Of a stretch of 39,758 nt of DNA, positions 17,011-24,953 are shown piece after piece (the stretch's first letter is position 1; the number at the start of each line of letters is the position of its first letter). The notes beneath the pieces are model-generated. The model was not told the origin of the DNA, did no database searches, and saw only the letters and a program-made list of their open reading frames with translations. This stretch comes from Shigella phage SfIV. The DNA lies in the sequence record KC814930, one strand, 5' to 3'. Position numbers and translations under genes: made by a program.

Positions 17011-17661
17011 ATGCATCGTATAGACACGAAAACCGCGCAGAAGGATAAGTTCGGCGCGGGTAAGAACGGTTTTACCCGTGGTAACCCCCAGACTGGCACG
17101 CCTGCCACCGATCTGGATGATGACTACTTTGACATGTTGCAGGAGGAGCTTTGCAGCGTGGTGGAGGCATCCGGTGCCAGCCTGGAGAAGGGGCGGCACG
17201 ATCAGTTGCTTACCGCACTTCGCGCGCTGCTGTTAAGCCGCAAGAATCCGTTTGGCGATATCAAATCGGATGGCACGGTGAAAACGGCTCTCGAAAACCT
17301 TGGTTTGGGAGAAGCAGCTAAAAGGAATGTAGGTACAGGGGCGAATCAGATACCTGATATGAGCCTGTTCGCGTCAAGTAATACCGCAACGGCTGCTGCG
17401 CAAAAATTTCCGTCTGGATTAATTTTACAGTGCGGTCAGTTGAATGGCTCCCCTAATGTATCTTCAACATACGGGATGAGGTTCCCGATGACATTCTCAA
17501 GAGTCCTTGCTGTCACAGTTACATTGAACGTTACTGGCGCGGCTGGGCAGCCGACTGTATCGGCGACAAATGTCCATAACACTGGATTTAATATTACTGT
17601 GTCGCCCGGTTCAGGATATGGTGCATCTTCTGATGCGTATTACATTGCAATGGGATATTAA
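17011..17661 (+). CDS. tail fibre protein (short)
   Basis: 216 aa, immediately followed by a tail-fibre assembly gene; unusually short for a tail fibre. Confidence 0.65.
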
Positions 17662-17665
17662 CGAA

Positions 17666-18085
17666 ATGTCATATTTTTATTCTGCATCGACAAACGGATT
17701 TTATTCGACTGAATTTCACGGCACCAATATTCCTGATGATGCAGTGGAAATCTCGGAATCAGAGTGGAAAACACTGATTAACTCACAGAGTGTAACAAAA
17801 ATGATTACCTGTGGTGAGAACGGTCATCCTGTCATTGTTGACCGTCCTTCTCCAACACCAGAACAATTAGCCTTAATAAATGATGAAAAGAAATCTGCAC
17901 TGATAGCAGAGGCAACGAATGTAATAGCGCCGCTTCAGGATGCGGTTGATTTAGGTATGGCAACAGATGATGAAACGAAACTGTTACTGGCATGGAAAAA
18001 ATATCGCGTGCTATTGATGCGTGTTAATACTTCAACAGCACTCGATATTGAATGGCCTACGCCTCCGGCAGTTCAGGCCAGATGA
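17666..18085 (+). CDS. tail fibre assembly protein (Tfa)
   Basis: ATG at 17666; C-terminus [28 protein letters not shown] is the Tfa signature; N-terminal part ...[14 protein letters not shown] is also typical. Confidence 0.8.
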
Positions 18086-18569
18086 CATCCGGCGCGGTGC
18101 TGGTATCTGTTGCCGTCACCGCGTCAATGTAATCCAGCACAGCGTTAAGGCGGGTTGTTTCTGCCTGCGTCAGTTTACGTCCGGCCTGCAATTTCAGCTG
18201 AATCAGACTGATGGAAGCCATAGCAGCATCAACCAGAGACTGGCGCTGTACTTCTGCTGCACCTACTGCGGCGCTATGCTGTGCCTCAGTATCCGTCACC
18301 CATTTCTCACCATCCCATTTATCATATGGCGTTAACGGGGCGATAGTGGTTGTATTTTCAGGGTAATCACCCAGAGCTGTGATTTCTTTCGATTCTCCTG
18401 TTTCGGTGCTATAAACGTTTTCACCGCGATGGTCTGGCACATATTCCCATGAGTTAAAATCTGCAGAACGGCAAATTGCATAACCAGCTTTATATGAGCC
18501 AGGAGCATCTAAACAGGAATATGCAGGGATACCGACACCCACAGCAAGATATTCAGTTGATGCAGAAAT
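18057..18569 (-). pseudogene. second tail fibre assembly gene, 5'-truncated by IS insertion
   Basis: Minus-strand reading frame ends ...[17 protein letters not shown] (Tfa signature), convergent with the plus-strand tfa; its 5' end runs into the IS3-family element at 18570 and the first ~45 codons of the track ORF are IS-derived. Confidence 0.7.
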
Positions 18570-18588
18570 ATGAATCGCCACAGATAAT

Positions 18589-19401
18589 CTAGACACTTCC
18601 GAGCCGCTGATAATATTGGTTTTCGTATTCAGTTGGTGGCATATGATCACTCGAACCATGCCGACGCTTACTGTTATAAAACATTTCGATGTAATCAAAA
18701 ATATCACCGCGAGCTTCTTCTCGCGTTCCGTAGATCTTTTTCTTTATCCGTTCACGTTTCAGTAGCTGGAAAAAACTTTCTGCGACTGCGTTGTCATGAC
18801 AGTTACCGCGACGGCTCATACTGCCCTCCAGCCCGTGTGATTTCAGGAACGACTGCCACTCATAGCTTGTGTACTGACTGCCTTGATCAGAATGAACCAG
18901 CACCTGCTTTTGAGGATTACGTCGCCACACGGCCATCAGAAGTGCATTCAGGACAATATCCTTTGTCATCCGGGGCTGCATTGACCAGCCAATAACTTTG
19001 CGCGAGAACAGGTCAACAACCACAGCCAGATACAGCCAGCCTTCGTGAGTCCGGATGTAGGTGATGTCCGTTACCCAACGCTCATCCGGTGCTTCCGAGT
19101 TGAACTGCCGCTGGAGCCTGTTGGGCGTCACGATGCTGGTTTCACCCTTACGTGCCCGTGGGCTACGGTACCCGACCTGAGCCCTTATCCCGGCACGCTT
19201 CATCAGTCGCCAGACACGGTTAACTCCGCACTGTTGTCCGGTATCCCGCAGGTCGAGGTGGATCTTGCGATAACCATAAACGCAACCCGACTCCAGCCAG
19301 AACTGCTTTATCAGCCCCGTCAGCCTCAGGTCAGCATGATGCCGCCGTGAATCCGGCTGCTGAAGCCAGGCGTAAAAACCACTCGGATGCACATCCAGCA
19401 C
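18589..19401 (-). CDS. IS3-family transposase OrfB (DDE catalytic domain)
   Basis: 270 aa; its frame is open upstream into the orfA 3' end, as expected for an OrfAB frameshift fusion. Confidence 0.85.
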   Translation of the reverse strand: MLDVHPSGFYAWLQQPDSRRHHADLRLTGLIKQFWLESGCVYGYRKIHLDLRDTGQQCGVNRVWRLMKRAGIRAQVGYRSPRARKGETSIVTPNRLQRQFNSEAPDERWVTDITYIRTHEGWLYLAVVVDLFSRKVIGWSMQPRMTKDIVLNALLMAVWRRNPQKQVLVHSDQGSQYTSYEWQSFLKSHGLEGSMSRRGNCHDNAVAESFFQLLKRERIKKKIYGTREEARGDIFDYIEMFYNSKRRHGSSDHMPPTEYENQYYQRLGSV

Positions 19402-19438
19402 CCGACAAAGCAGTCGGACAGGCCAGCAATGGGTGTTG

Positions 19439-19741
19439 TCACGGATAAAGGCGTACCTCAGTCGGACAGCTTTGCGAAGTACGCCGCTGTAGATTCAATA
19501 TGTCCCGTTCGTCGGTAACCCGCTTCAGCTCTTTCTGGAGGCGTCGGATCTCAGCCTGAGCGTCTGACTGGACTTTATTGGTTGAGGAATCCGGGCCATA
19601 TGCCTTTATCCAGGCATAAAGACTGTGGGTGGTGATACCGAGACGTGTTGCCACGCTGGAAACAGAATGGCCGCGATCAACAACCTGTTTTACCGCTTCA
19701 ATTTTAAACTCTTCGGGATAACGCTTACCGCTCATGGGCAC
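19439..19741 (-). CDS. IS3-family transposase OrfA (HTH)
   Basis: 100-aa ORF, N-terminal HTH-like segment, upstream of orfB within the IS. Confidence 0.8.
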   Translation of the reverse strand: MPMSGKRYPEEFKIEAVKQVVDRGHSVSSVATRLGITTHSLYAWIKAYGPDSSTNKVQSDAQAEIRRLQKELKRVTDERDILNLQRRTSQSCPTEVRLYP

Positions 19742-19904
19742 CTCTCTTTAAGTCATCTTAAATGACTCTGAGGTGTCTGTTAAACCTGTGGCGATTCATT
19801 ATTAACTCTAATTTTAACAATAATTCCAGCCAGTACCCCGTCAGCCAGGTTGTAGTATTGGGCGGTAATTATTCTTACCCGGAAGGGGTTAAGATGACAC
19901 TAGA

Positions 19905-20373
19905 GATGCGCGGTAATACCTGCCTTGGGGTTGGCTATACGGCAAGCGCATCGAGGCCAGATGTTAGTATAAGTGGATATTCCGCCAATGAGCAGGCTAT
20001 TTTTATCGATTATGATAACTTATGGATCCCATCACAATCACCGGTTGTGGATGCTACTGTTAAATGGAAAAGCTCTCCTGACTTCGCTTTTGGTGTGAGC
20101 GTTGTTGGTGCGACTGGAGCAATGGGAAACAGGAGAAATATACTCAGTGTTACAAGGGGAGCGACTGGGGTTTATACAGTAAATGCAAATCATGATATAG
20201 CAAACGTGGCTGTAGAAATAACTACTGTAGGGGTACCAGGATACGGAATAATAGGTGGTTATCCTACCGCAAACTCATTCGTTGTAAGGATGTACAATAC
20301 TGCAGGCGCTCCCACTGACATAGATTTCATAGCATTAGGAAAAGACTATAGAGCAAGATTTAACGCTACATAA
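19905..20373 (+). CDS. hypothetical protein
   Basis: ORF 19762..20373 begins inside the IS; the first ATG outside the IS is at 19905 with a purine-rich stretch upstream. Followed by a strong hairpin. Confidence 0.45.
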
Positions 20374-20374
20374 A

Positions 20375-20405
20375 ATCCCCCCCCCAGGATAACTGTGGGG
20401 GGGAT
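20375..20405. terminator. bidirectional stem-loop between convergent genes
   Basis: atccccccccc...gggggggat with about 9-bp G/C arms, between the 19905..20373 (+) gene and gtrC (-). Confidence 0.5.
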
Positions 20406-20407
20406 GT

Positions 20408-21721
20408 TTACTTATAAATTCCTGATGCTACCTTATCCAATATAATTGATAGTACTATAAATATCATTAGGTCAAATGAAAAGTTCATTGCAAAAAGATG
20501 CTTGTCTAAATCTCTATATCCTTCGCCAATGAAGCTAATATAAAACTGAGAGATGCTAAAAGCAGATAATGTAAAGATTGCAACAGAATATTTTTTTCGG
20601 ATAAAAATCAGTGATGCTATCATGGCTATAAATGCAACAGGAATCCTCACAGTTGATAGAGCAGAGTCTTTTATTTTTTGAACTTCATTCAAAAAAACAC
20701 TCTTACTTATTATTAGCTTATTTTCCTTGAAGACATGGAAGTAATCTTCAGTTAATTGGGTTCGAACTCCAGAATCAAAAGGAAGAAGGAGGAACATGGA
20801 AGGTTGCTTTAGCATCAAAAGCAAAGAATCCTTCAATCCCCTTTCTTTATTTTTTGCGAAGCAGGCTCCAGCATCTTTTGTGGTAACAGCTCCCTTATCC
20901 AAATCAAATTTATTTCCCCATGCATCAACACCAATGCATTCGTCCACGGCCCACGATGGATTTTCTTTTCCATTGCTTTTATTGTATAGCAAAGTCCCGA
21001 AATAAAGGGAGTGATAGCTGTTATATTTAGTTGCGCTTGGCGAGAAAAATGAAAATGACAATGCAATTATCGTCGCAATTACCATAGCTAAGTGAAATTT
21101 TTTATCTCTTATGTCAATAAATATTATTGAAATTAAAGAAATTAAAATGGGAATATAGAAGAACTGAGATTTTGATGTGGCGATTAGCGCTGCGCATGCA
21201 ACTAGTAATACTTTATCAAACCTTGATATTTCTTTTTTAAGAATTATATAAGTAATTACCGGAAGTAAAGTGATTACTATTTGCTCCTGATAAAATGCTG
21301 TGAATTGTGAAAGTATGGAAGGAGTAAATAGCAATAATGCTGATACCGGAAATAAAAGATAAGAATATTTTTTATTGTTTATTTCTACAAATAGTTTATA
21401 TAACGCACAAATATACACGATTTTGGAAAGAGATGACCATAACCTAAGATCAAATGTGTGTGTGAATATCGATATAACATAAGCGTATAAATAAAGAATA
21501 TAACTAAATGAGCTTTTATACTCATAGTTCACAATTGAACTGAAATTTTCCTTCAGGGTATAAAGTAATGTGCCATCATGTGAGAACTGTCTGATCCCAT
21601 TCATGAAAGGTGTTATGGCCCTATCGAAGTCGCCATTATTCATCATCCATATGTCAATTGACTCCTTGCACAGTAATGCACAAAAAATTGCAAGGAATAC
21701 ATACCTTATTCTTTCAGCCAT
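20408..21721 (-). CDS. serotype-specific O-antigen glucosyltransferase (GtrC-type, polytopic membrane protein)
   Basis: 437 aa, strongly hydrophobic with many predicted TM segments, very AT-rich, immediately downstream of gtrB and gtrA. Confidence 0.7.
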   Translation of the reverse strand: MAERIRYVFLAIFCALLCKESIDIWMMNNGDFDRAITPFMNGIRQFSHDGTLLYTLKENFSSIVNYEYKSSFSYILYLYAYVISIFTHTFDLRLWSSLSKIVYICALYKLFVEINNKKYSYLLFPVSALLLFTPSILSQFTAFYQEQIVITLLPVITYIILKKEISRFDKVLLVACAALIATSKSQFFYIPILISLISIIFIDIRDKKFHLAMVIATIIALSFSFFSPSATKYNSYHSLYFGTLLYNKSNGKENPSWAVDECIGVDAWGNKFDLDKGAVTTKDAGACFAKNKERGLKDSLLLMLKQPSMFLLLPFDSGVRTQLTEDYFHVFKENKLIISKSVFLNEVQKIKDSALSTVRIPVAFIAMIASLIFIRKKYSVAIFTLSAFSISQFYISFIGEGYRDLDKHLFAMNFSFDLMIFIVLSIILDKVASGIYK

Positions 21722-21722
21722 T

Positions 21723-22637
21723 TTATTTCTCTTTTAACAAGTAGCGAGGTCTCTGTTTAACTTCGGTATAAATCCGGCCAATGTACTCGCCCAAAACTCC
21801 GATACCAATGAGCTGCACACCACCGAGAAAAAGTATTGATACCAGCAATGATGGATAACCGCGCACAGGATTCCCGAATGCAAGCGTATCAATGATCATC
21901 CAGGCACCGTACAGGAAAGCCAGGCCTGCAACGAACAGGCCAATGTACGTCCACATGCGTAACGGAAATGTTGAGAAGCTGGTAATCCCTTCAAGCGCCA
22001 GGTTCCAGAGCTTCCAGCCATTAAACTTAGTGCTGCCAGCAACACGCTCAGCGCGAGCATATTCAACAACATCTGTACTCCCACCAACCCAGCTCAATAC
22101 TCCTTTCATGAACAGGTTGCGTTCTGGTAATAATTTAATGTTTTCCACAACTCCGCGAGACATTAGTCGGAAATCGCCGACGTTCTCCTCAATCTTTGGA
22201 TTGCTTATTTTATTGTGAAGTTTATAGAACCACTCAGCAGTCATGCGCTTCAGTCTTCCGTCTGTAGAACGGTCTGAGCGCTTAGCCAGTACCATATCAG
22301 CACCTGCCTGCCACTTTTCAATAAGATGAGGGATAACCTCAATCGGGTCCTGCAGATCGACATCAATAGGAATTACAGCATCGCCGCTTGCATGGTCTAA
22401 CCCTGCAAATAAGGCTGGTTCTTTACCAAAGTTGCGTGTAAATGACAGCGGAACAACTAGCGGGTCTGAAACAGCCAGCGCGTTAATAATTGACTCTGTG
22501 GCATCTTTACTTCCGTCATTTATGAATACAATTTCTACTTCATATGGCTTCAACTCTTGGAATTCACGTACCGTTTTATAGAAAACAGGTATCGCTTCTT
22601 CTTCATTGAAGACAGGAACGACAAGAGATATTTTCAT
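21723..22637 (-). CDS. gtrB: bactoprenol glucosyltransferase
   Basis: 304 aa; N-terminal GT2 features ([26 protein letters not shown]) and C-terminal TM helices. Confidence 0.85.
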
Positions 22638-22996
22638 TTCGCATCCCTAAAGACAATGAACTTTGAATAGACGAAACCGCACACCAGACTGATGGCGGAG
22701 AAGGTGATAAGAGTGACTATTGGAGGAAGTGAGCATTTATCAGCTGCCCAACCAACAATCACACTCAATATTCCCATAAATCCCACGTATAACATGTAGC
22801 GCATCGCTGTAGTCGATGCTTTGAATGTGAATCTTGCATTCGCGAAGAAGCTAAAGCTCACAGCCACTACGAAACCTGTGAAGTTTGCCAGAGCCTGACT
22901 GGTATGTGCGGCATAGATACATACACCAAAAACCACCCAGTGTATAAGTGTGTTCAGCACACCTATAGATGTGTACTTTACAAATAACTTTAACAT
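22634..22996 (-). CDS. gtrA: bactoprenol-linked glucose translocase (flippase)
   Basis: 120 aa, four predicted TM helices, overlaps the gtrB start. Confidence 0.8.
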
Positions 22997-23197
22997 TTAT
23001 TTAATCAATGAGCTCTGAAAGGCATGAAGTCTATCATCCAAGTCTCAATTGATCGATACTTGCTATGTCTGATGAGACAAAACTGAGACACATAAGGCCT
23101 CACAATGGCTTGCAAGGCTTTACATGTTTTGATGTGGTGGGACGTGTGAGCGCAGTGTTGATGGGGTAATGCTTTGAATTAGAATCGGATTCTTATA

Positions 23198-23243
23198 ATT
23201 CGTAATGCGAAGGTCGTAGGTTCGACTCCTATTATCGGCACCA
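23198..23243 (+). other. attP core: 3' 46 nt of tRNA-Thr (thrW-type)
   Basis: attcgtaatgcgaaggtcgtaggttcgactcctattatcggcacca matches the anticodon-stem-to-CCA portion of enterobacterial thrW as I recall it; the 5' half of the tRNA is absent; integrase gene ends 15 nt away. Confidence 0.8.
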
Positions 23244-23257
23244 TTAAAATCAATAAG

Positions 23258-24421
23258 TTACACATCATTAGTACCTTCCTTATTTTTTGACTGGGACAAA
23301 TTTGGGACCGATGGGTTCAGGATCGAGTCTATTTGCCGTGCGTGTTCGGTAAGGTGATTAGGTGCAAGGTGAGCATATCGACGAACCATTTCGATAGACT
23401 CCCAGCCTCCCATTTCCTGTAAAACTGACAACGGGACTCCGGCTTGAACCAGCCAACTTGCCCAGGTGTGTCTCAAGTCGTGAAATCTGAAATCATCAAT
23501 ACCAGCCCGTCTCAGCGCCGCTTTCCAGGCTGTGTTTGCGTCATACCGCATCTTCCTTACTGTTGGCGCTTTCGTTCCGTCTGGTTTGGTACAGCTTTCC
23601 TTGTACACAAATACCCAACGGTGATGATTCCCGATTTGTTTTTTCAATACGCGACATGCAGTATCATTCAGCGCAACGCCAATTGCGCGGTTTGATTTAC
23701 TCTCTTCCGGGTTTATCCATGCCACCCGGCGCTGCATATCTATTTGTTGCCATTCAAGGTTGATGATGTTCGAGCGTCTTAAGCCTGTTGCCAGTGCAAA
23801 TTCAACAACAGACTTTAATGGCTCCGGACATTCATCAATCAGCCTTTGTGCTTCATGGGGCTCCAGCCAGCGGATCCGTTTATTCTTTGGTTGAGGCACT
23901 TTAATAATTGGTGCCTTATCCAGCATTTTCCATTCACGCTCTGCGGCTCTTAGTAGGGCCTTTATAAATGAAAGATGCGTAGCCTTCGTTGCAACGGACG
24001 CTGGTTTTGGCGTGTATTCTGGAACAGGTTTCCCTTTTTTTCTGCATGCTTCTGCCCTGAGTTTCCAGTTTTCCTCATGACGCCGGTTCGTCATTTTCTG
24101 CATTGCTGAATAAATTTTTGATTCAGTAATGTCTCTTAGTTGCATTCCTGCGAAATGTTGAAGCCAGAATCCGATCCGGCTTTTGTCATCGTCCAGTGAT
24201 TTTTTATGTGCTTTCTCTTCAAGCCACCTGACACACGCTTCCTCGAACGTTATATCAGGTATTTCACCAAGTTTGCTGACCCGCCATGCTTCAGCCTTTA
24301 GCTTGTCATGGAGTTCTGTCGCCTGCCTTTTGTCCTTTGTTCCAAGAGACTGTTTAAATCTTTTACCGTTCGGCAATGTGAAACTGGCGTACCATATTTC
24401 ACCTCTGCGGAAGAGTGACAT
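23258..24421 (-). CDS. int: tyrosine integrase (P22-type)
   Basis: 387 aa; N-terminus [34 protein letters not shown] and C-terminal catalytic region ([10 protein letters not shown]...VRRYAHL) typical of phage tyrosine integrases; adjacent to attP. Confidence 0.9.
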
Positions 24422-24648
24422 TTTCTTTCCTCTGTTATGCCATCACCCGCGCTCACCTGGACAGTATGCAGCGGAGACTGAAGAGCCGCAATGCAGGCTT
24501 GTCGTGTTGTGAGGTAAGGAGATTTATTCTTAGTGGGATCTTTGCGTGTTGCCTGAAGACGCCCTGTGCGTATCCAGTTAATGGCAGTCGGTCTGGATAT
24601 CTTGAGAAAATGACAGGCCTCATCGAGTGTGAGGCTGTATGGCTCCAT
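24298..24648 (-). CDS. xis: excisionase-like HTH protein
   Basis: Internal ATG at 24648 gives [31 protein letters not shown], an excisionase-type HTH; overlaps the int 5' end. Boundaries uncertain. Confidence 0.55.
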
Positions 24649-24953
24649 TATTTCACCTCTTGCTGTGACATTGTTGAAAAATGGATACCAGCTCGTTGCT
24701 GCCAGACGATCCAACCGAGAGTCATATCCCATGCCATGTATTCGTTATCGCCGTTTTTTGCTCTCCGACGATCTACTAAGTCACCGAAACGCTTTTCCAT
24801 GAATAATTCATAAGCTTCGCGTTCATCTGGTTCTACTTCCAGAGATAGGAGTGCGATTTCATAAGCACGGCGCTCAATATCGTCTCGCACGTCAAGGCTG
24901 CTGATACGCTCTTTAATTTCTTTAATCAGTTCTTTGTCGGTAAAAGTGGTCAT
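24648..24953 (-). CDS. hypothetical early protein
   Basis: 101-aa ORF, in operon with neighbours on the minus strand. Confidence 0.45.
   Translation of the reverse strand: MTTFTDKELIKEIKERISSLDVRDDIERRAYEIALLSLEVEPDEREAYELFMEKRFGDLVDRRRAKNGDNEYMAWDMTLGWIVWQQRAGIHFSTMSQQEVK

What the first reader, a model, noticed from the sequence alone, without database searches (positions are those of the whole stretch)
20408..23243. gtrA-gtrB-gtrC serotype-conversion cassette next to attP(thrW)
Three minus-strand genes encode the flippase GtrA, the GT2 transferase GtrB, and a very AT-rich polytopic GtrC-type transferase. They lie next to an attP that holds the 3' 46 nt of tRNA-Thr, with a P22-type integrase beside it. 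This is the established layout of Shigella and Salmonella serotype-converting phages. The GtrC protein sets the glucosylation specificity, and I cannot tell which serotype from the sequence.
Basis: partly seen in the sequence, partly recalled or inferred. Interest (0 to 1): 0.5.

Follow-up and report, generated by a model that had tools for sequence, protein, structure and literature searches.

The report
Phage SfIV gtrA-gtrB-gtrIV serotype-conversion operon

Summary
Three co-oriented minus-strand genes are present: gtrA (22634-22996), gtrB (21723-22637) and a 437-aa polytopic protein (20408-21721, 32.6% GC against 50.3% for the window). Next to them lies an exact 46-nt copy of the 3' end of tRNA-Thr thrW (23198-23243), followed by an integrase 90% identical to P22 Int.

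It is type IV. The 437-aa protein is 434/437 identical to UniProt Q93TY7 (GtrIV-Sf). GtrB is identical to Q93TY8 (GtrB-IV). The window length equals the published 39,758-bp genome of S. flexneri phage SfIV, whose lysogens convert serotype Y to 4a. GtrIV adds glucose alpha-1,6 to the GlcNAc of the O-unit.

New but minor points:
- It belongs to the YfdI/WsfD-like family (40% identical to K-12 YfdI) and has no detectable similarity to GtrI, GtrII, GtrV or P22 GtrC.
- The model fits a 10-TM topology better than the published 8-TM plus re-entrant-loop model.
- An unannotated tailspike remnant suggests the cassette came from a P22-like podovirus.

Verdict: already known, low interest.

The parts
20408..21721 (-). 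gtrIV (SfIV orf-25): serotype IV-specific, GT-C fold, UndP-glucose-dependent alpha-1,6 glucosyltransferase acting on GlcNAc of the O-unit; 437 aa, 32.6% GC
21723..22637 (-). gtrB (SfIV orf-26): GT2 bactoprenol (undecaprenyl-phosphate) glucosyltransferase, 304 aa
   Evidence: PF00535 E 2.6e-30. The exact sequence is named GtrB-IV, Q93TY8. 93-94% identical to GtrB of SfI, SfII and SfV; 89% to P22 GtrB and K-12 YfdH.
22634..22996 (-). gtrA (SfIV orf-27): small membrane protein, proposed UndP-glucose flippase, 120 aa; 4-nt overlap with gtrB
   Evidence: PF04138 E 1.9e-14. The exact sequence equals GTRA_BPSF5. 100% identical to GtrA of SfI and SfV.
20372..20408 (.). G/C-rich hairpin between the convergent stop codons of gtrIV and the tailspike remnant; likely bidirectional intrinsic terminator ending the gtr operon
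   Evidence: Inverted repeat I2. RNA fold -23.9 kcal/mol, z -3.06, followed by a U-run on the minus strand.
23084..23118 (-). Terminator-like hairpins between int and gtrA. A terminator is annotated at the equivalent place in SfII. They would insulate the gtr operon from int transcription.
   Evidence: Consensus scan. SfII annotation at L007 4836-4882. Function inferred.
23198..23243 (+). attP core: 46 nt identical to the 3' end (nt 31-76) of tRNA-Thr thrW
   Evidence: Exact 46/46 match; the same core occurs twice (attL and attR) around the integrated element in E. coli NCTC9967. PMC3851460 reports a 46-bp attP identical to SfI and SfV.
23258..24421 (-). int (orf-28): P22-type tyrosine integrase, 387 aa
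   Evidence: PF00589 E 3.2e-48. 89.9% identical to P22 Int and 98.5-99.5% to Sf-phage integrases.
24298..24732 (-). xis (orf-29): excisionase with an HTH_17 domain, overlapping the 5' end of int
   Evidence: PF12728 E 3e-08. Same position as xis in SfII, SfV, SfI and P22.
19762..20373 (+). Remnant of a tailspike gene: residues 13-203 match the C-terminal 191 aa of a 681-aa tailspike. The first 12 codons come from the IS terminal repeat. It converges on gtrIV.
   Evidence: 97% identity to residues 491-681 of P0050. IS inverted repeat at 19766-19799. P22 has gene 9 (tailspike) convergent with gtrC at the same place. Not listed among the paper's orfs.
18570..19799 (-). IS3-family insertion sequence (ISEhe3 in the paper; orfA 19439-19741, orfB 18589-19401) bounded by 34-nt imperfect inverted repeats. 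It marks the junction between the tail-fibre module and the tailspike-remnant/gtr module.
   Evidence: Pfam HTH_Tnp_1 and rve. Inverted repeat I1. PMC3851460 orf-23 and orf-24.

Best explanation
The region is the O-antigen glucosylation (serotype-conversion) operon gtrA-gtrB-gtrIV of the temperate Shigella flexneri myovirus SfIV. The window appears to be that phage's complete 39,758-bp genome.

How it works:
1. In a lysogen, the phage is integrated at thrW through the 46-bp attP core and the P22-type integrase.
2. GtrB, a GT2 enzyme on the cytoplasmic face, makes undecaprenyl-phosphate-beta-glucose from UDP-glucose.
3. GtrA is thought to flip this lipid-linked donor to the periplasmic face.
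4. GtrIV, a polytopic GT-C fold transferase, moves the glucose onto O-6 of the GlcNAc residue of the O-antigen repeat in alpha configuration. This turns serotype Y (group antigen 3,4) into serotype 4a (type IV antigen).

What rests on what:
- Shown here: gene identities, operon layout, attP core, GT-C fold, family relations.
- Shown in the literature: Y to 4a conversion by SfIV lysogeny and by cloned gtrIV; loss of function on deleting the periplasmic loops.
- Quoted from the literature, where the papers themselves word it cautiously: the alpha-1,6-to-GlcNAc linkage is stated as background, and the GtrB step is described there as hypothesised.
- Inferred: the flippase role of GtrA, and the catalytic role of the invariant periplasmic residues (D31, R34, E146, K184, H408).
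For: - GtrIV identity: 434/437 to Q93TY7 'GtrIV-Sf'. The exact sequence is on record as 'serotype specific glucosyltransferase'.
- GtrB is an exact match to Q93TY8 'GtrB-IV', and GtrA an exact match to GTRA_BPSF5.
- Window length 39,758 equals the published SfIV genome length. The paper describes orf-25/26/27 as gtrIV/gtrB/gtrA, orf-28/29 as int/xis, ISEhe3 as orf-23/24, an extra tail fibre assembly gene, a 46-bp attP and 50.29% GC. All of these are seen in the window.
- The backbone is collinear with SfII, SfI and SfV at 95-98% identity.
- Pfam: GtrA_DPMS_TM, Glycos_transf_2 and Phage_integrase, all above their cut-offs.
- Homologues sit in gtrA-gtrB-gtrC operons elsewhere, for example Pantoea (58% identical, beside wzz/gnd) and K-12 CPS-53 yfdGHI (40%).
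- Biochemistry and serology from the literature: PMC3259042, PMC3851460, and the three-component model in PMC11127046.
Against: Nothing substantive.

- The SfIV GenBank record is not in the phage collection. Identity with SfIV therefore rests on the exact length, gene content and protein identities, not on a base-by-base alignment.
- The window's GtrIV differs from Q93TY7 at three residues (E146/D, Y233/N, K282/E). Function of this exact allele is inferred from the SfIV lysogen phenotype reported in the paper.
- No sigma-70 consensus promoter was found on the coding strand upstream of gtrA.
- The curated Pfam and NCBIfam models available locally score GtrIV just below their cut-offs.
Confidence: 0.97

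Rival explanations
1. The third gene is not a glucosyltransferase but an O-antigen acetyltransferase or other modifier that merely sits in a gtr operon. (From my own knowledge, some Salmonella 'GtrC' proteins are acyltransferases.)
For: The 437-aa protein has no above-threshold Pfam or NCBIfam hit in the local libraries. It has no similarity to GtrI, GtrII, GtrV or P22 GtrC.
Confidence: 0.01
2. The cassette is a decayed, non-functional remnant. It sits beside an IS element and a truncated tailspike gene, and cryptic remnants of the same cassette exist in E. coli.
For: An IS3-family element and a tailspike fragment lie immediately 3' of gtrIV. Two of the three E. coli genomes carrying the cassette have only a remnant prophage.
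Against: All three gtr ORFs are intact and of full length, with coupled junctions and a terminator. The window is a complete phage genome with an intact attP. SfIV was induced, plaque-purified and shown to convert Y to 4a. Even remnant gtr clusters are typically expressed (4a strains).
Confidence: 0.01
3. The window is not Shigella phage SfIV itself but a near-identical SfIV-like prophage from E. coli, computationally circularised. The host O-antigen, and hence the serological outcome, could then differ.
For: E. coli CFSAN061762 carries the same tail module, IS3, tailspike remnant and gtrIV-B-A at thrW, with 99.8-99.9% identity over 20300-23261. The SfIV record could not be aligned directly.
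Against: The window length is exactly the published 39,758 bp. The orientation (starting at terminase, ending at cos) and the intact attP match the way the SfIV sequence was constructed. The exact GtrIV sequence is recorded mostly from S. flexneri contigs. Either way, the cassette and its enzymology are the same.
Confidence: 0.03

Closest known systems
gtrA-gtrB-gtrIV of S. flexneri serotype 4a / phage SfIV (UniProt Q93TY7, Q93TY8; Jakhetia et al. 2013, PMC3851460; Nair et al. 2011, PMC3259042)
   Same: Essentially identical. GtrIV 434/437. GtrB and GtrA exact. Same genome length, attP, int/xis, ISEhe3 and extra tail-fibre-assembly gene.
   Different: Three conservative or surface substitutions relative to the Q93TY7 allele (E146 versus D, Y233 versus N, K282 versus E). 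E146 is the family consensus residue.
gtr cassettes of phages SfI, SfII and SfV (gtrI, gtrII, gtrV)
   Same: Same operon order, same position between the tail module and attP-int-xis, same thrW core. GtrA 99-100%, GtrB about 93%, Int 98.5-99.5% identical.
   Different: The type-specific proteins share no detectable sequence similarity with GtrIV (BLASTP E >= 0.1; family profile E = 5). They target rhamnose residues rather than GlcNAc, except GtrI, which adds alpha-1,4 to GlcNAc (linkages from my own knowledge and the literature). SfIV alone has the IS plus tailspike remnant at the junction.
E. coli K-12 CPS-53 (KpLE1) yfdG-yfdH-yfdI
   Same: YfdI is a true homologue of GtrIV: 40% identity over 431 residues, E 4e-92, with the same Pfam family YfdI_N (PF27133) on GtrIV-family members. 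YfdH is 89% and YfdG 88% identical. Opposed tail-fibre-assembly genes lie nearby.
   Different: It is integrated at argW with a different integrase (intS). The prophage is cryptic. The acceptor specificity of YfdI is not known to me, and K-12 lacks O-antigen.
WsfD of Paenibacillus alvei (S-layer glycan branching glucosyltransferase; NCBIfam NF051875)
   Same: Distant member of the same family: several GtrIV homologues are named WsfD, and GtrIV scores 75 bits against NF051875. The proposed chemistry is the same: alpha-1,6 glucose from a lipid-phosphate carrier onto an N-acetylhexosamine (ManNAc) (PMC2943079).
   Different: Below the curated cut-off (80 bits). About 22% identity to the Paenibacillus homologue. 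Gram-positive S-layer glycoprotein pathway with no GtrA in the cluster, and not phage-borne.
P22 gtrABC next to tailspike gene 9
   Same: The layout tailspike(+) then gtrC(-) gtrB gtrA attP(thrW) int xis is the same as the window's tailspike remnant then gtrIV gtrB gtrA attP int xis. Int 90%, GtrB 89%, GtrA 78% identical.
   Different: P22 is a podovirus with an intact tailspike. P22 GtrC is unrelated in sequence to GtrIV.

Membership tests
Gtr three-component O-antigen glucosylation cassette (gtrA-gtrB-gtr(type)) | Small GtrA-family membrane protein encoded first in the operon | tested here: met
   PF04138 54.3 bits against cut-off 26.1; exact match to GTRA_BPSF5.
Gtr three-component O-antigen glucosylation cassette (gtrA-gtrB-gtr(type)) | GT2 polyprenyl-phosphate glucosyltransferase (GtrB) encoded second | tested here: met
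   PF00535 106 bits against cut-off 23.3; exact match to Q93TY8; 93% identical to Sf-phage GtrB.
Gtr three-component O-antigen glucosylation cassette (gtrA-gtrB-gtr(type)) | Third gene encodes a polytopic GT-C fold transferase with periplasmic loops | tested here: met
Gtr three-component O-antigen glucosylation cassette (gtrA-gtrB-gtr(type)) | Located beside attP and int of a temperate phage | tested here: met
   attP core at 23198-23243 and int at 23258-24421.
Gtr three-component O-antigen glucosylation cassette (gtrA-gtrB-gtr(type)) | Lysogens or clones change the O-antigen serotype | not testable with these tools
   Reported in the literature: SfIV lysogens of serotype Y agglutinate with type IV antiserum (PMC3851460), and gtrIV deletion mutants lose conversion (PMC3259042).
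GtrIV (type IV-specific glucosyltransferase) | Sequence identity with the characterised GtrIV-Sf (Q93TY7) | tested here: met
   434/437 identical with no gaps.
GtrIV (type IV-specific glucosyltransferase) | Adds alpha-1,6-linked glucose to GlcNAc of the O-unit | not testable with these tools
Phage SfIV | Genome of 39,758 bp and about 50.3% GC with the described gene set (gtrIV, ISEhe3, extra tail fibre assembly gene, 46-bp attP) | tested here: met
   Window 39,758 b, 50.3% GC; genes; description.
Phage SfIV | Base-by-base identity with the deposited record | not testable with these tools
   The record is absent from the phage collection.
Pfam YfdI_N (PF27133) | Match to the family model | tested here: inconclusive
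   The model is not in the local Pfam copy. The precomputed annotation marks PF27133 on the 100%-identical partial P0002 and on 70 of the 71 listed homologues. GtrIV is 40% identical to YfdI itself.
NCBIfam NF051875 glycan biosynthesis hexose transferase WsfD (subfamily) | Score at or above the curated cut-off (80 bits) | tested here: not met
   75 bits, E 4.7e-21. A relative, but not a member by NCBI's cut-off.
Pfam DUF2142 (PF09913) / GT87 (PF09594) | Score at or above the gathering threshold | tested here: not met
   26.3 against 30.1 bits and 17.6 against 25 bits. These show GT-C clan-level resemblance only.
P22-type thrW-integrating tyrosine recombinase module | Integrase homologous to P22 Int, and attP core identical to the thrW 3' end | tested here: met
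   89.9% identity to P22 Int; 46/46 core; integrated copies lie at thrW beside proA in E. coli.

The most novel reading that the evidence does not exclude
The cassette is known, but two details may be new.

(a) GtrIV may be a canonical GT-C enzyme with 10 TM helices, N-in and C-in, and an active site built from invariant periplasmic residues (D31/R34 in loop 1, Y144-Q145-E146, K184, N234/Y236/H237, E400-H408). That would contradict the published 8-TM plus re-entrant-loop topology and the suggestion that GtrIV works differently from other Gtrs.

(b) The gtrIV module, together with the 3' end of a tailspike gene and their shared terminator, may have been captured by a SfV/SfII-like myovirus from a P22-like podovirus, with the ISEhe3 element at the junction.
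Probability: 0.55. Interest if true: 0.25.

Novelty: already known. Interest (0 to 1): 0.08.

Why it matters
S. flexneri serotype is defined by these phage-borne modifications, and protective immunity and vaccine design are serotype-specific. Recognising gtrIV therefore has practical typing value, but the gene, the phage and the phenotype were all published between 2001 and 2013.

The residual value lies in three places:
- A confident structural model places GtrIV in the GT-C fold and in the YfdI/WsfD-like family, and it nominates specific catalytic residues for mutagenesis.
- There is a likely correction to the published membrane topology.
- The tailspike remnant records module exchange between podoviral and myoviral converting phages.

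SfIV-like prophages carrying gtrIV also occur, rarely (3 of 5,426), in complete E. coli genomes.

Tried and rejected
- tblastn of GtrIV against 50,697 phage records gave no match at E <= 1e-3. At first this suggested a novel transferase. The cause is that SfIV itself is absent from that collection and no other deposited phage there encodes a YfdI-family Gtr.
- phmmer against PDB sequences gave only chance hits. The fold had to be established from a model.
- Foldseek against predicted viral structures (BFVD) gave nothing at E <= 0.001, so there is no structural neighbour among viral proteins in that library.
- Pairwise BLASTP and a family HMM against GtrI, GtrII, GtrV and P22 GtrC found no similarity.
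- The promoter scan found no consensus sigma-70 site on the coding strand upstream of gtrA. Only one GATC lies in the gtrA-int intergenic region (23051). From my own knowledge, Salmonella gtr operons are phase-variable through several paired GATC sites bound by Dam and OxyR, so this arrangement is not evident here. I did not pursue it further.
- A literature check for a link between gtrIV and E. coli O13, O129 or O135 found only general statements. The serogroups of the three E. coli carriers were not determined.
Full report
**1. Observation**

The ORF list shows three co-oriented minus-strand genes exactly as described:
- 22634-22996, 120 aa
- 21723-22637, 304 aa
- 20408-21721, 437 aa

They are followed by a 387-aa gene at 23258-24421 and an overlapping 144-aa gene at 24298-24732.

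Pfam assigns these families:
- GtrA_DPMS_TM to the 120-aa protein (54.3 bits, cut-off 26.1)
- Glycos_transf_2 to the 304-aa protein (106 bits)
- Phage_integrase to the 387-aa protein (164 bits)
- HTH_17 to the 144-aa protein (excisionase-like)
- only sub-threshold DUF2142 and GT87 hits to the 437-aa protein

gtrA and gtrB overlap by 4 nt. The gtrB stop and the gtrIV start are 1 nt apart.

The third gene is strongly AT-rich: 32.6% GC, against 45.1% for gtrB, 43.0% for gtrA and 50.3% for the window.

The intergenic region between gtrA and int contains, at 23198-23243, a 46-nt stretch identical to nt 31-76 of thrW tRNA-Thr. The same core occurs at both ends of the integrated element in E. coli NCTC9967. 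ARAGORN finds no complete tRNA in the window.

**2. Identity**

An exact-sequence look-up gave these results:
- The 437-aa protein is on record as 'serotype specific glucosyltransferase'. It is seen on 283 contigs, mainly S. flexneri.
- Its 90% cluster contains UniProt Q93TY7, 'GtrIV-Sf'. The two differ at 3 of 437 residues.
- GtrB is an exact match to Q93TY8, 'GtrB-IV'.
- GtrA is an exact match to GTRA_BPSF5.

The rest of the window is collinear with phages SfII, SfI and SfV at 95-98% identity, from terminase to the right end. The window is therefore a whole phage genome.

Its length, 39,758 bases, is exactly that published for S. flexneri phage SfIV (PMC3851460). That paper describes the following features, all seen in the window:
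- orf-25/26/27 as gtrIV/gtrB/gtrA
- orf-28/29 as int/xis
- orf-23/24 as ISEhe3
- an additional tail-fibre-assembly gene, orf-22
- a 46-bp attP identical to that of SfI and SfV
- 50.29% GC
- no tRNA genes

The SfIV record itself is not in the phage collection available here. A base-by-base confirmation was therefore not possible.

**3. Mechanism**

The literature gives the three-component model (PMC3259042; PMC11127046):
1. GtrB makes UndP-glucose from UDP-glucose on the cytoplasmic face.
2. GtrA is proposed to flip it to the periplasm.
3. The type-specific GT-C enzyme attaches the glucose to the O-antigen in the periplasm.

PMC3259042 states that GtrIV adds glucose alpha-1,6 to GlcNAc, converting serotype Y to 4a. 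SfIV lysogens of a serotype Y strain acquire type IV agglutination. Deleting either large periplasmic loop of GtrIV abolishes conversion.

I tested the structural premise directly:
- A search of the large protein collection returned 71 homologues. Most carry Pfam PF27133 (YfdI_N), and several are named WsfD-like hexose transferases.
- A 48-sequence alignment gave an AlphaFold2 model with mean pLDDT 94.1 and pTM 0.93.

GtrIV is therefore a GT-C fold enzyme that uses a polyprenyl-phosphate-sugar donor.

**4. Relations**

- GtrIV is 40% identical over its full length to E. coli K-12 YfdI, the Gtr(type) protein of prophage CPS-53 (E 4e-92).
- It is 58% identical to a Pantoea protein encoded in a chromosomal gtrA-gtrB-gtrC operon beside wzz/gnd.
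- It scores 75 bits against NCBIfam NF051875 (WsfD), just under the 80-bit cut-off.
- WsfD of Paenibacillus alvei is the putative alpha-1,6 glucosyltransferase that decorates ManNAc from a lipid carrier (PMC2943079). That is the same regio- and stereochemistry on an N-acetylhexosamine as stated for GtrIV.
- GtrIV shows no detectable similarity to GtrI, GtrII, GtrV or P22 GtrC by BLASTP (E >= 0.1) or by a family HMM (E = 5). Meanwhile GtrA (99-100%), GtrB (about 93%) and Int (98.5-99.5%) are nearly identical to those of SfI, SfII and SfV.
- This agrees with the published statement that the type-specific proteins share no similarity.
- Foldseek against predicted viral structures found nothing significant.

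**5. Minor additions beyond the literature**

(a) Topology.
- The helices of the model and the charge distribution fit 10 TM helices: 2-20, 92-114, 120-141, 147-161, 167-183, 190-202, 207-225, 359-372, 379-400 and 410-436.
- Both termini would be cytoplasmic, and the large periplasmic regions would be 21-91 and 226-358.
- This is the in-silico consensus model that Nair et al. abandoned in favour of 8 TM plus a re-entrant loop.
- In the 10-TM arrangement, every short cytoplasmic loop carries 2-3 Lys/Arg.
- All nine invariant residues (D31, R34, K184, N234, Y236, G242, G399, G401, H408) and nearly all of the 33 near-invariant residues lie on the periplasmic side.
- D31 and R34 sit in the first periplasmic loop, where GT-C enzymes usually carry their catalytic acid. 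This is inference. The orientation was not computed from coordinates, and none of these residues appears to have been point-mutated.

(b) Origin of the module.
- The 203-aa ORF at 19762-20373(+) is not among the paper's orfs.
- Its residues 13-203 are 97% identical to the last 191 residues of a 681-aa tailspike.
- Its first 12 codons lie in the right inverted repeat of the IS3-family element at 18570-19799.
- It converges on gtrIV across a strong shared hairpin at 20372-20408 (-23.9 kcal/mol, z -3.1).
- This is the P22 arrangement, gene 9 (tailspike) followed by gtrC on the opposite strand.
- It suggests that the gtrIV module, with its terminator and the tailspike 3' end, was acquired from a P22-like podovirus, with the IS at the junction.

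(c) Distribution.
- Only 3 of 5,426 complete E. coli genomes carry gtrIV, always at thrW next to proA.
- CFSAN061762 carries the same tail module, IS3, tailspike remnant and gtr cassette as the window.
- LD93-1 and NCTC9967 hold IS-truncated remnants.

**6. Verdict**

The finding is real and correctly interpreted, and it is already known. It is the gtrA-gtrB-gtrIV operon of phage SfIV, which specifies S. flexneri type IV antigen (serotype 4a).

Interest is low. The structural and family assignment, the probable topology correction and the tailspike remnant are incremental.

Noticed in passing
window 19762-20373 (+): Unannotated 203-aa ORF. Residues 13-203 are 97% identical to the C-terminal 191 aa of a 681-aa tailspike, and the first 12 codons derive from the IS inverted repeat. 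It converges on gtrIV exactly as P22 gene 9 converges on gtrC. This points to capture of the gtrIV module from a P22-like podovirus. The same remnant accompanies gtrIV in all three E. coli carriers.
   Followed up: partly
window 18570-19799: IS3-family element (ISEhe3 in the SfIV paper) with 34-nt imperfect inverted repeats (76% complementary). orfA is at 19439-19741 and orfB at 18589-19401, presumably joined by a programmed frameshift. It truncates both the minus-strand tail-fibre-assembly gene and the tailspike remnant.
   Followed up: partly
window 17570-18085 (+) and 18057-18707 (-): Two opposed tail-fibre-assembly (Caudo_TAP) genes meet tail to tail. The minus-strand one loses its 5' end to the IS. 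This resembles a decayed invertible tail-fibre segment. A similar tfaS'/yfdK pair lies next to yfdI in K-12 CPS-53 (L006 6804-7518). I did not search for an invertase gene or crossover sites. The paper suggests the extra gene may explain SfIV's distinct host range.
   Followed up: no
window 20408-21721 (GtrIV protein): The AF2 model and charge pattern fit a 10-TM, N-in/C-in GT-C topology rather than the published 8 TM plus re-entrant loop. The invariant residues D31, R34, K184, N234, Y236 and H408 and the near-invariant pair C262/C287 (possible periplasmic disulfide) are untested candidates for function.
   Followed up: partly
L002 (E. coli CFSAN061762, NZ_CP042901.1 3753056-3772977); L001, L003: An E. 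coli from raw-milk cheese carries the same tail module, IS3, tailspike remnant and gtrIV-B-A arrangement as the window, at thrW. Two other E. coli (LD93-1, NCTC9967) carry a remnant: int', ISEc52, tailspike', gtrIV-B-A. Whether these strains have a flexneri-type O backbone (O13, O129 or O135) was not determined.
   Followed up: partly
L004 3725-6314 (Pantoea sp. 1.19, MRBS01000001.1): A GtrIV homologue (58% identical) sits in a gtrA-gtrB-gtrC operon embedded in the chromosomal O-antigen region, between the his operon and wzz/gnd, with no phage genes in the 11-kb locus fetched. This family of Gtr(type) enzymes is therefore not confined to prophages.
   Followed up: no
window 22997-23257: The gtrA-int intergenic region holds a single GATC (23051) and no consensus sigma-70 promoter on the gtr strand. 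Terminator-like hairpins at 23084-23118 (-) lie downstream of int. The gtr promoter remains unlocated.
   Followed up: no
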